DNA from: the human T2T-CHM13v2.0 reference genome, Homo sapiens
Assembly: GCF_009914755.1 (NCBI RefSeq)
Contig: NC_060934.1
Length of the DNA stretch: 64,000 bases
Direction: 5' to 3' (one strand)
A program made the position numbers and the translations under genes. A model generated the notes under the pieces. That model saw only the letters and a program-made list of their open reading frames with translations, did no database searches and was not told the origin of the DNA. Positions 2,223 to 6,127 of the stretch are shown one piece after another (position 1 is the first letter of the stretch; every line of letters begins with the position of its first letter).

Positions 2223-2437
2223 TTAAGAGGTGGCCCCGGGTGTGGGATTCACATTTTGAGTGGCCACTTGTGGTGCGACCTCGATGATCCGGGGTTTGTC
2301 TATGATTCTGGCTGTGCGGTTGCCCTTCTCTACAATCCCAATAATCCATGCTTGGTGGCCTTCACCATATTTGGGGGACTTTATCTCTGCACAGAACCGA
2401 GCTGCTTGCTCACGTGGTAAACAGATCAGAAGGCCGC
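2223..2437 (-). CDS. SEPHS1: SEPHS1 exon 9 coding part to the TAA stop
   Basis: [71 protein letters not shown]; acceptor TTTTGCCAG|GC. Confidence 0.98.
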
Positions 2438-3913: not shown

Positions 3914-4790
3914 TTAAAAACTTCCTATTTCTGAAGAAAGGAAACAAATTTAAATGGCTGGTAACATTCGTCAATTCATTCAATTTCCATTCAGTGCCCA
4001 ATTATGTGGCAGACACTGTCCTGGCCAGAGCCTGAACCAGCAGGGGAAAAAAACCCTGCCCTGTTGGAGCTTACTTCTAGAAAATGGTTTGTTTTTTTAA
4101 ACGGGAGGCTGAAGCGTCCTCTATAATGGCGGTGAGAGGCCTGGCAGAGTCCTGAAGCCCCCTCGCCACAGCACAGGTCGACGTGACCAGGGCTTTGTGG
4201 TCCCAGCACTGTGGTCCCTTGCCCCGGCCTACTACGGAATCTCCCAGGCAGCCTTCACAGATGCTGAGGCCCAGGCCCACCCGAGATGGATCCCACCGTT
4301 TTTGGGAGGCTGGGGCTAGGCATGTGTATTTTTCTTTTTTTTTTTGAGACAGAGTCTCACTCTGTCGCCCAGGCTGTAGTGCAGTGGGGCGATCTTGGCT
4401 CACTGCAACCTGTGCCTCCTGGGTTCAAGCGATTCTCCTGCCTCAGCCTCTGGAGTAGCTGGGATTACAGGGCACACGCCACGACGCCCCGCTAATTTTT
4501 GTATTTTTAGTAGAGACAGGATTTCACCATGTTGGTCAGGCTGGTCTCGAACTCCTGACCTCGACCTCCCAAAGTGCTGGAATTACAGGCGTGAGCCACC
4601 AGGCCTGGCCGGCATGTGTATATTTAAAATCCTAAGGTGATTCCACTCTTTTGCGGGTAGAAAACTAGAGTTCTAGAGGAAAGGAAATAGAAAAAGAGAG
4701 AAACTGAAAAAAAGGGGAAAACAGGGAGACTTAAAAGATGAAAACAGTAAAGGTAAAGGGAACAAAGGGGGCAAAAGAGAAATGGTACTT

Positions 4791-5163
4791 CAGGAGGACG
4801 CGCCATCTGGCTCCAGCTGGGGCTGCGGGAGTGGGAATGAGCGATGGCGAGCCTGTAGGCTGTGGGTGGCGGCCTCGGCGGCCGGCAGGCCATGCTGGAG
4901 TACCTGCCATGATGAAGAGGAGGACGTCCCACAAGTTCCGGACAGATGTGGCCACCAAATTAATCAGGAAACAAAAGGAGCTTAATCTTAGAAAAATGAT
5001 AAGGGATATAAAAGCTCCCTAGGAGTCAAACTACTGGGGCGTATGGTGTCAGACCTGCACTGCTGTCTGATGGCTCTCTCTACCTACGCTTGCTCCATCT
5101 CCCGTTTATCCTCCATTTATGTTTCCTCTAATAAATTACTGCACATCTAAGAAAAAAGAAAAA
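4791..5163 (+). pseudogene. Processed retrocopy of a short transcript containing a SPIN1-like segment, antisense within SEPHS1 intron 8
   Basis: GC-rich 5' end, AATAAA at 5130-5135, decayed poly(A) at 5149-5163. Flanking direct repeat aaaagagaaatggtactt (4773-4790) / aaaagaaaaatggcattt (5154-5171). 4885-4934 encodes AGHAGVPAMMKRRTSHK, close to the SPIN1 N-terminus AGHAGVSANMMKKRTSHK as I recall it. Confidence 0.75.
5088..5146 (-). other. SEPHS1: Candidate alternative (cryptic) SEPHS1 exon encoding D-V-Q-stop; 3' boundary uncertain
   Basis: Acceptor CCATTTTTCTTTTTTCTTAG|ATGTGCAGTAA in phase with exon 8 (TCA G|AT GTG CAG TAA). Possible donors after 5088, 5084, 5055 or 4904. Confidence 0.65.
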
Positions 5164-5174
5164 TGGCATTTTAA

Positions 5175-5462
<288 letters not shown>

Positions 5463-5914
5463 TGATGTGCCTGCCTCAGCCTCCTGAGGTGCCAGTATTA
5501 CAGGCAAGAGCCACCACACCTGGCCCCTTTTCTCTCTATCATTCTTAAAACAACGTTAGACAATTTTCAAGGAAAAAAATATCACCTGTTCAAAGTAACC
5601 TAGGGGTATTACAGTTAATTTCAAATGCGAAGCTTTCAGTAAAAACTGAATGCTACCTTATTTCCCCCATCACCATATCCTTGCATCAAAAAGAGCACAG
5701 GCCACTCAACCTCAGCAAGGCTGCTGGATCCACCCAGGATGGCGGGGACCAGACCCACCGGGAGGAGGAAAGGCACCAGCTGCTGCGGAGGCCGAGGTCA
5801 GCAGCATGGAACTCGAACAGAGTGGGGGCCCACTCGGGGTGGGGCTGCTGCTTTCTCGCTGAGCTTTCTGTTAGCCTCACTATTTAGTCCTCAGATGCGC
5901 CCAGCATCCTGTAC

Positions 5915-6127
5915 CTGAAGTCTCCGGGCAGGTCCCGTGCATGAGGCCGAACATGTTTCCGCAGGCCTTGCTCACCGCAGCCATCTTGGCCAGCACCGGG
6001 AGGTTGTGAATTACAAACGACACCTCGTTCCTCTGCTGCTTGGCCAGGTTCTGCGCATGGCCCAAAATCCCGAAGCCCGTGATGTCAGTGGCGGCGTGGG
6101 CATTGAACGTGTGCATGAGTCCTGCAG
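5915..6127 (-). CDS. SEPHS1: SEPHS1 exon 8 (213 nt, frame-preserving)
   Basis: [35 protein letters not shown]...GTCPETS (DITGFG motif); acceptor CTCTCCCAG|CT, weak donor CAG|GTACAG. Confidence 0.98.

What the first reader, a model, noticed from the sequence alone, without database searches (positions are those of the whole stretch)
5055..5171. Antisense poly(A) tail of a retrocopy creates a truncating DVQ-stop exon in SEPHS1
Seen: on the SEPHS1 strand the retrocopy tail reads CCATTTTTCTTTTTTCTTAG|ATGTGCAGTAA, a textbook acceptor. Exon 8 ends TCA G (phase 1), so splicing gives ...T-S-D-V-Q-stop, a 324-aa protein lacking residues 322-392, including W352 and R371. The donor after 5088 (AGC|GTAGGT) leaves the stop 48 nt from the last junction, borderline for NMD escape. 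Donors after 5055 or 4904 put it more than 55 nt away, an NMD target. Inference: donor choice could switch between a truncated protein and a poison exon. I recall a DVQ-ending SEPHS1 isoform in protein databases (unverified). Its origin by exonisation of another gene's retrocopy is the part I have not seen described.
Basis: partly seen in the sequence, partly recalled or inferred. Interest (0 to 1): 0.85.

Follow-up and report, generated by a model that had tools for sequence, protein, structure and literature searches.

The report
SEPHS1 stop exon from antisense retrocopy
A short stop-containing exon candidate in the last intron of the human SEPHS1 gene is built from the reverse strand of an inserted copy of another gene's processed RNA; the resulting shortened protein form seems to be already known, so only the exon's origin is new detail.

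Summary
The sequence observation holds. On the SEPHS1 (minus) strand, a 17-of-18 pyrimidine tract and an AG precede ATGTGCAGTAA at 5146. Exon 8 ends in phase 1, so the splice reads T-S-D-V-Q-stop. That gives a 324-aa protein lacking residues 322-392. The four named donors exist and are the best GT sites nearby.

The plus-strand insertion (4788-5153) is a processed RNA copy. It has a 13-of-15 target-site duplication and an AATAAA signal. It also lacks the introns found at two chr9 source loci: a 49-nt exon of the chr9 spindlin gene (SPIN1 by recall) and a terminal exon at chr9:104.38 Mb.

One correction. Only about 5 nt of the pyrimidine tract is poly(A) remnant, and 15 nt is the duplicated A-rich target site. 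The AG, the stop and the donors are antisense to the source RNA's last exon.

I could not test usage, because no RNA data were available. RefSeq's 8 transcripts have no exon here, and 0 of 120 listed database proteins end in DVQ. From recall only, this matches the "+E9/+E9a" variants of Kim et al. 2010.

Antisense retrocopy exonisation is a described class (Baertsch 2008). The donor-choice NMD switch is untested speculation. Interest is modest.

The parts
5147..5148 (-). AG of the candidate 3' splice site. It is the complement of the last templated CT of the inserted RNA copy.
   Evidence: The chr9 source, read antisense, also has ...GTTAG|ATGTGC.
5149..5168 (-). Polypyrimidine tract. 5149-5153 is the complement of the AAGAA tail remnant. 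5154-5168 is the complement of the 3' target-site duplication.
   Evidence: 17 of 18 pyrimidines at -20..-3; homology to the chr9 source ends at 5150.
5088..5146 (-). Shortest form of the candidate cassette exon (59 nt), with donor AGC|gtaggt. Longer forms end at 5084, 5055 or 4904.
5136..5138 (-). In-frame TAA stop after D-V-Q. It is the complement of the TTA directly 3' of the plus-strand AATAAA.
   Evidence: The chr9 source reads GAA here, with the next in-frame stop further on in the same antisense frame, by my reading of the strings printed.
4788..5153 (+). Processed (spliced, polyadenylated) RNA copy inserted in SEPHS1 intron 8, antisense to SEPHS1.
4773..4787 (+). 5' target-site duplication, AAAAGAGAAATGGTA.
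   Evidence: 13 of 15 identical to 5154-5168; 3 of 2000 shuffles.
5154..5168 (+). 3' target-site duplication, AAAAGAAAAATGGCA.
4889..4934 (+). Copy of a 49-nt internal exon of the chr9 spindlin gene: 43 of 46 identical plus a 3-nt deletion.
   Evidence: Spin-Ssty exons lie 13.6-26 kb downstream on the same strand.
4935..5044 (+). 110 nt of the insertion with no genomic source found. It is shared only with a second processed copy on chr5.
5045..5150 (+). Copy of a terminal exon at chr9:104376581-104376686 (99 of 106 identical). At the source it is preceded by ttttacag.
5130..5135 (+). AATAAA polyadenylation signal of the inserted RNA copy.
5915..6127 (-). SEPHS1 exon 8. It ends ...ACT TCA G (phase 1), with donor CAG|gtacag.
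   Evidence: AIRS_C profile positions 58-100.
2223..2437 (-). Coding part of SEPHS1 exon 9 (residues 322-392), which is lost from the DVQ form.
   Evidence: AIRS_C positions 115-154 of 156 at E = 0.0083, below the cut-off. Present in solved structures 3fd5 and 9hjt.

Best explanation
An L1-type retrotransposition placed a processed copy of a spliced, polyadenylated RNA into SEPHS1 intron 8, in the opposite orientation. The RNA contained an exon of the chr9 spindlin gene and ended in a terminal exon from chr9:104.38 Mb.

Read on the SEPHS1 strand, the insertion's 3' end forms a complete cassette exon:
- The duplicated A-rich target site plus a short tail remnant give the polypyrimidine tract.
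- The last templated CT gives the AG.
- The stretch between the cleavage site and AATAAA gives D-V-Q-stop.
- The antisense terminal exon supplies several moderate donors.

Inferred steps: inclusion happens at a low level and gives mRNAs with a premature stop. These would encode a 324-aa SEPHS1 lacking the last third of its AIRS_C domain. For the longer exon forms, they would mainly be NMD substrates.

From recall only, this is the exon of the '+E9' and '+E9a' variants of Kim et al. 2010, two mRNAs said to encode one protein. That would fit a stop lying upstream of alternative donors.
For: Sequence, frame and stop are confirmed.

Retrocopy hallmarks:
- Target-site duplication of 13 of 15, reached by 3 of 2000 shuffles.
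- AATAAA 13-15 nt before homology to the source ends.
- The terminal-exon copy starts exactly at the source's acceptor, ttttacag|GTGTCAG.
- The 49-nt exon copy is flanked at its chr9 source by ...cttacag| and |gtaagc.
- Both pieces show the same divergence from their sources, 93.4% and 93.5%.

A second processed copy on chr5 shares the 5' part but continues into other chr9 exons. It lacks a 122-nt GT..AG intron present at that source.

The acceptor tract is as pyrimidine-rich as the best constitutive SEPHS1 acceptors. The named donors have U1-duplex energies of -5.8 to -7.7 kcal/mol, against -5.5 to -11.6 for constitutive donors.

Exons 8 and 9 both fall in AIRS_C. [quoted passage not shown]
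Against: No expression data were available, so use of the exon is not shown here.
- The RefSeq table supplied with the task lists 8 SEPHS1 transcripts and no exon between 2438 and 5914.
- 0 of 120 listed proteins (of 504 hits) sharing exon 8 end in DVQ.
- No yUnAy branch-point motif lies within 60 nt upstream.
- 7 other intronic AGs have equally pyrimidine-rich tracts without being annotated exons.
- The donors match only 5-6 of 9 consensus positions.
- The text of Kim 2010 and of the Bang 2022 review was not held, so the link to +E9/+E9a and to a UniProt DVQ isoform rests on recall.
- The first ~100 nt and the middle 110 nt of the insertion have no genomic source apart from the chr5 copy.
Confidence: 0.7

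Rival explanations
1. Donor choice (5088/5084 against 5055/4904) decides between an NMD-escaping mRNA that makes a stable truncated protein and an NMD-targeted poison exon, giving primates a way to tune SEPHS1 dosage.
For: The stop-to-junction distances straddle the 50-55 nt rule: 48 and 52 nt against 81 and 232 nt. Several donors of similar strength are present. By recall only, Kim 2010 reported two mRNA forms encoding one protein, with expression that varied over the cell cycle.
Against: Nothing here shows regulation, conservation or NMD sensitivity. A stop in this exon would also leave a 3' UTR of about 2 kb (exon 9 spans 509-2437), which can trigger NMD without a downstream junction. The exon derives from neutral-looking insertion sequence about 6.5% diverged from its sources. 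'SEPHS1' with 'poison exon' returned 0 papers.
Confidence: 0.1
2. This is an unused pseudoexon. The acceptor, stop and donors are a coincidence of insertion sequence, splicing ignores them, and the recalled DVQ isoform is either mistaken or maps elsewhere.
For: There is no RefSeq exon in intron 8 (task table). 0 of 120 listed proteins end in DVQ. No canonical branch-point motif was found. 7 comparable acceptor tracts in SEPHS1 introns are not annotated exons.
Against: Two independent recollections exist of a DVQ-ending isoform and of '+E9/+E9a' variants. The existence of the 2010 paper is confirmed by title. The protein database is clustered at 90% identity, so a 324-aa isoform could be hidden inside the full-length cluster.
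Confidence: 0.15
3. The plus-strand segment is not a retrocopy. It would be ordinary intronic DNA or a DNA-level duplication that happens to resemble sequences on chr9 and chr5.
For: The parent transcript is only partly reconstructed. About 210 of 366 nt have no genomic source, and the two identified sources lie 3.8 Mb apart on chr9.
Against: The homology blocks begin and end exactly at splice sites of the chr9 loci. AATAAA and an A-rich end are followed by a 13-of-15 direct repeat of the 5' flank. An independent chr5 copy has the same exon joins.
Confidence: 0.05

Closest known systems
Human SEPHS1 (SPS1) '+E9' and '+E9a' splice variants (Kim et al. 2010, BBRC 397:53; UniProt P49903 isoform 4). 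Only the title was seen here; the details are recalled.
   Same: An extra exon after exon 8, with two mRNA forms said to encode the same C-terminally shortened protein. That is what a stop at codon 4 of the exon followed by alternative donors would give.
   Different: I could not read the paper or the database records, so the exon boundaries are not matched to 5146/5088/5055. As far as I recall, the paper does not discuss a retrocopy origin.
Type Ib exon acquisition from antisense retrocopies (Baertsch et al. 2008, PMC2584115; passages read). Examples there include RRAS2/SCP2, RPL24/DENN1B and RPL21/BRCA1.
   Same: A retrocopy inserted in an intron opposite to the host gene contributes an alternatively spliced exon. 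Some of those exons shorten the host protein. The polypyrimidine tracts come from antisense purine-rich sequence of the insert.
   Different: Here the tract comes from the tail remnant plus the duplicated target site, and not from purine-rich coding sequence. The source RNA is a non-canonical, apparently chimeric transcript and not a standard mRNA. SEPHS1 and SPIN1 occur 0 times in that paper's main text, and its supplements could not be opened.
Antisense Alu exonisation (Sorek, Ast and Graur 2002, seen as a reference; the mechanism is from general knowledge).
   Same: The antisense A-rich 3' end of an L1-mobilised element becomes the polypyrimidine tract of a new, weakly included cassette exon. 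SEPHS1's introns hold four such Alu poly-T/AG sites.
   Different: The element is a single-copy processed RNA and not an Alu. The AG and the donors come from a unique sequence.
Poison (NMD-coupled) cassette exons, for example in SR-protein genes (general knowledge).
   Same: A cassette exon carrying a premature stop more than 55 nt upstream of the last junction, in the 92- and 243-nt forms.
   Different: There is no evidence of deep conservation, autoregulation or NMD sensitivity. The exon is young insertion sequence, and the shortest form sits at the NMD boundary.

Membership tests
L1-mediated processed retrocopy | Lacks the introns present at the source locus | tested here: met
   Block boundaries coincide with the acceptor and donor of the chr9 49-nt exon and with the acceptor of the chr9:104376581 terminal exon.
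L1-mediated processed retrocopy | Polyadenylation signal followed by an A-rich tail at the 3' end | tested here: met
   AATAAA lies at 5130-5135. Homology to the source ends at 5150 and is followed by GAA and then A-rich sequence. The recognisable tail is only about 5 nt.
L1-mediated processed retrocopy | Flanking target-site duplication | tested here: met
   4773-4787 against 5154-5168 is 13 of 15 identical. 3 of 2000 shuffles of the flanks reach this.
L1-mediated processed retrocopy | Identified parent gene covering the whole copy | tested here: inconclusive
   155 of 366 nt (46 plus 3 deleted, and 106) map to two chr9 loci. The rest matches only the chr5 sister copy. 200 kb upstream of the chr9 terminal exon holds no 5' part.
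Antisense retrocopy exonisation (Baertsch Type Ib) | Retrocopy lies within a host-gene intron, opposite in orientation to the host | tested here: met
   The insertion is on the plus strand. SEPHS1 is on the minus strand, intron 8 (task table).
Antisense retrocopy exonisation (Baertsch Type Ib) | Spliced host transcripts that include the retrocopy-derived exon | not testable with these tools
   No RNA data were available. RefSeq lists no such exon. Support is only from recall (Kim 2010 +E9/+E9a).
SEPHS1 +E9/+E9a variant exon | Extra exon between exons 8 and 9 whose two forms encode one truncated protein | tested here: inconclusive
   The position and the stop-before-alternative-donors layout fit. 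The paper's text was not held, and 0 of 120 listed proteins end in DVQ.
Poison exon (NMD-coupled alternative splicing) | Premature stop more than 50-55 nt upstream of the last exon junction | tested here: inconclusive
   Met for the donors at 5055 (81 nt) and 4904 (232 nt). Not met or borderline for 5088 (48 nt) and 5084 (52 nt).
Poison exon (NMD-coupled alternative splicing) | Transcript stabilised by NMD inhibition, with regulated inclusion | not testable with these tools
   No expression data.

The most novel reading that the evidence does not exclude
A primate-lineage retrotransposition of a germline spindlin-initiated chimeric RNA gave SEPHS1 a dual-output exon. The 59/63-nt form would escape NMD and make a dimerisation-competent, C-terminally truncated SEPHS1 that modulates the full-length enzyme. 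The 92/243-nt forms would act as a poison exon, so donor choice would tune SEPHS1 dosage in a lineage-specific way.
Probability: 0.1. Interest if true: 0.55.

Novelty: new member of a known kind. Interest (0 to 1): 0.3.

Why it matters
SEPHS1 is an essential redox and selenium-pathway gene. From recall, de novo exon-9 missense variants in it cause a neurodevelopmental disorder. A lineage-specific exon that removes all of the exon-9-encoded residues could matter for interpreting variants in intron 8 and for differences between human and mouse models.

As it stands, the shortened isoform appears to be already described. What this work adds is base-by-base provenance:
- The exon is antisense to the last exon of an inserted processed RNA.
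- The pyrimidine tract comes mostly from the target-site duplication and not from the poly(A) tail.

It is a clean textbook example of antisense retrocopy exonisation. It is not a new mechanism.

Tried and rejected
- **Parent gene near the chr9 terminal exon.** BLAST of the insertion against 200 kb upstream and 10 kb downstream of chr9:104376581 found nothing beyond the terminal exon itself.
- **Guess that the chr5 homologue belongs to RAD17.** RAD17-domain exons lie 40 kb further on, at chr5:70.200-70.211 Mb. The chr5 locus is instead a second processed copy.
- **The 106-nt 3' block as a free-standing repeat.** It does belong to an old dispersed family, with copies 61-77% alike and homology extending beyond the block. 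The 93% match to one chr9 copy, and the start exactly at that copy's acceptor, point to that copy as a transcribed terminal exon.
- **Source of the middle 110 nt and the first ~100 nt.** Whole-genome searches with the window's version and with the chr5 version found only each other.
- **Literature.** Kim 2010 and Bang 2022 were not held. 'SEPHS1' with 'E9a' gave one irrelevant paper. 'SEPHS1' with 'poison exon' gave 0, and 'SEPHS1' with 'exon 9' and 'isoform' gave 0. Other SEPHS1/SPS1 papers only cite Kim 2010 or do not mention splicing. Two searches were rejected for term format.
- **DVQ isoform in the protein database.** 0 of 120 listed hits (of 504) end in DVQ. Many short hits are read-through into intron 8.
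- **Canonical branch-point motif.** No yUnAy was found in the 60 nt upstream of the AG.

Full report
**Observation**

On the minus (SEPHS1) strand the window reads ccatttttcttttttcttag|ATGTGCAGTAA. The AG lies at 5148-5147 and the first exon base at 5146.

Joining the annotated coding parts in a script gives 1179 nt and 392 aa. Exon 8 closes at nucleotide 964, which is 321 codons plus one base. Splicing 5915 to 5146 therefore reads ...C-P-E-T-S-D-V-Q-stop, a 324-aa product. W352 and R371 lie in the lost part. The stop occupies 5138-5136.

| Donor after | Sequence | Exon length | Stop to junction |
|---|---|---|---|
| 5088 | AGC\|gtaggt | 59 nt | 48 nt |
| 5084 | TAG\|gtagag | 63 nt | 52 nt |
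| 5055 | CAG\|gtctga | 92 nt | 81 nt |
| 4904 | CAG\|gtactc | 243 nt | 232 nt |

**Is this more than chance?**

The acceptor has 17 of 18 pyrimidines at -20..-3. That equals the best of the eight constitutive SEPHS1 acceptors, which range from 11 to 17. Of 1886 AG dinucleotides in 27,568 nt of SEPHS1 introns, 8 reach this level.

Four of those 8 are antisense-Alu poly-T sites. Two more (4703, 4672) lie just beyond the insertion. None of the other seven is an annotated exon, so a strong tract is rare but is not proof of use.

By U1-duplex energy the four named donors rank 1, 2, 4 (tied) and 6 among 29 GT sites in the 640 nt downstream. The two others in the top six, at 4566 and 4560, would give exons of 581 and 587 nt. 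The four score -5.8 to -7.7 kcal/mol, inside the range of constitutive SEPHS1 donors (-5.5 to -11.6). They match only 5-6 of 9 consensus positions.

No yUnAy branch-point motif lies within 60 nt upstream, and the nearest upstream AG is at -42.

**What the plus-strand element is**

On the plus strand the region reads AATAAA (5130-5135), TTACTGCACATCTAA, then GAAAAAAGAAAAATGGCA. The 15-mer AAAAGAAAAATGGCA (5154-5168) repeats AAAAGAGAAATGGTA (4773-4787) at 13 of 15 positions. Only 3 of 2000 shuffles of the two 41-nt flanks do as well. The element therefore spans 4788-5153 between target-site duplications.

Whole-genome searches of the window's own assembly give these matches:
- **Window 5045-5150** is 99 of 106 identical to chr9:104376581-104376686. 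There it is preceded by ...ttctctttttacag and continues past the cleavage site into unrelated sequence.
- **Window 4889-4934** is 43 of 46 identical, plus a 3-nt deletion, to a 49-nt exon at about chr9:100603041. That exon is flanked by ...ctcttacag| and |gtaagc. It translates to HAGVSANMMKKRTSH. It lies 13.6 kb upstream of the first of three Spin-Ssty exons on the same strand. This is the only multi-exon autosomal spindlin locus found, which from general knowledge is SPIN1.

The two blocks are equally diverged from their sources (93.4% and 93.5%). This fits one insertion event of one spliced RNA.

The remaining sequence is about 100 nt at the 5' end and 110 nt in the middle. It matches only chr5:70160626-70161185 (83-86%), which is interrupted by an Alu. 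That chr5 locus is a second processed copy. After the shared part it continues into exons found at chr9:106529105 onward (acceptor ttttttgcaacag|AGACTCC) and lacks a 122-nt GT..AG intron present there.

The source was therefore a non-canonical, apparently chimeric spindlin-initiated transcript with alternative 3' exons. Its full structure is not recovered.

**Provenance of each splice element**

- **AG (5148-5147).** It complements the last templated CT of the source RNA. The chr9 source read antisense already has ...GTTAG|ATGTGC, but behind a purine-rich stretch.
- **Pyrimidine tract.** It is TTCTT (5149-5153, the complement of the tail remnant AAGAA) plus 15 nt of target-site duplication. 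Most of the tract is duplicated intron and not poly(A) tail, although both are products of the retrotransposition.
- **Stop.** The TAA complements the TTA directly 3' of AATAAA. The chr9 copy reads GAA there. By my reading of the antisense strings printed, the next in-frame stop in that source version lies ten codons further on, so the exon would carry a stop in either version.
- **Donors.** The donor AGC|GTAGGT is present in the antisense source. CAG|GTCTGA arose by substitutions. The donor at 4904 lies in the antisense spindlin-exon copy.

**Consequence for the protein**

Exon 8 matches AIRS_C (PF02769) profile positions 58-100 (E = 9.7e-6). Exon 9 matches positions 115-154 of 156 (E = 0.0083, below the gathering score). 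Residues 323-392 are part of the solved human structures 3fd5/3fd6 and 9hjt/9hju.

The DVQ form would therefore lack roughly the last third of the C-terminal domain. Whether it folds or accumulates is not tested. The joined protein was not sent to a structure predictor.

**Is the exon used, and is it known?**

I had no RNA data. The evidence on use is as follows:
- **RefSeq.** The RefSeq table supplied with the task lists 8 transcripts and no exon in intron 8.
- **Protein database.** A search with exon 8 returned 504 hits, of which the best 120 were listed. 0 of those 120 end in DVQ. 80 continue GGLL as in exon 9, and many short ones read into the intron. The database is clustered at 90% identity, so this is weak evidence.
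[quoted passage not shown] 2010) is cited in four papers I opened. Its text and a 2022 SEPHS1 review were not held.
- **Recall only.** Its abstract names the variants major type, deltaE2, deltaE8, +E9 and +E9a, and says +E9 and +E9a make the same protein. UniProt lists a corresponding isoform. That is what a stop four codons into an exon with alternative donors would produce. I therefore think the isoform is already described, at about 0.75.

**Mechanism class**

Baertsch et al. 2008 (PMC2584115; abstract and passages read) describe 'Type Ib' exon acquisition from retrocopies inserted antisense in host genes. Their cases include some that trigger shorter alternative transcripts. They note that the polypyrimidine tracts derive from antisense purine-rich insert sequence.

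A 2024 preprint (FREDDIE; passages read) also treats retrocopy exonisation as a routine category.

The origin story is thus a new, well-resolved example of a known kind. The donor-choice NMD switch is arithmetically possible but has no supporting data. A stop here would also leave a 3' UTR of about 2 kb, which by itself can promote decay (general knowledge).

**Age (inference)**

There are ten substitutions in 152 aligned nt against the two chr9 sources, a recognisable target-site duplication and a decayed tail. Together these suggest an insertion tens of millions of years old, after the primate-rodent split. No primate or outgroup genomes were available to test this.

**Verdict**

The retrocopy origin holds. 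'Poly(A) tail' should read 'tail remnant plus target-site duplication'. The regulatory switch is untested.
- The isoform is probably already known.
- Interest is modest.

Noticed in passing
L002 (chr5:70160626-70161185 of the same assembly) and onward to about chr5:70165300: This is a second processed copy of the same unusual 5' exons (83-86% identical to window 4795-5045), split by an Alu. It continues for more than 4 kb into exons that map to chr9:106529105 onward, with a second, inverted copy near chr9:109.07 Mb. So two independent retrocopies record spindlin-initiated RNAs ending in different chr9 exons, 3.8 and 5.9 Mb downstream of the spindlin gene.
   Followed up: partly
window 5045-5150; loci L003, L005-L008: The 106-nt terminal-exon block belongs to an old dispersed repeat family. 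Copies on chr4, chr5, chr9, chr13 and chr18 are 74-82% identical to the window and 61-77% identical to each other. Homology among them extends up to 1.3 kb beyond the block. The family was not named.
   Followed up: partly
window 4738-5022 (+): A 94-codon open frame runs through the insertion in the spindlin exon's own reading frame (it contains ...HAGVPAMMKRRTSHK...) and stops at 5020-5022. By eye, the chr5 copy keeps the last part of this frame open. This is probably chance at this length.
   Followed up: no
window 4703 and 4672 (-): Two more AG sites with 17 of 18 upstream pyrimidines lie in the original pyrimidine-rich intron just beyond the insertion's 5' end. Their best downstream donors are weaker, at -6.4 kcal/mol.
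   Followed up: no
window 25019, 19017, 10296, 8972 (-): Four antisense-Alu poly-T/AG sites of the classic exonisable type lie in other SEPHS1 introns.
   Followed up: no
window about 5217-5527 (-): An Alu in sense orientation relative to SEPHS1 ends with its A-run about 70 nt upstream of the candidate acceptor. It lies outside the retrocopy's target-site duplications, so it gives no relative dating.
   Followed up: no
proteins P0001-P0014: Many short database 'proteins' 100% identical to exon 8 are open frames that read from exon 8 straight into intron 8. For example, one ends with the translation of the human intron's first 30 nt. These are gene-prediction artefacts on short contigs and not isoforms.
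   Followed up: partly
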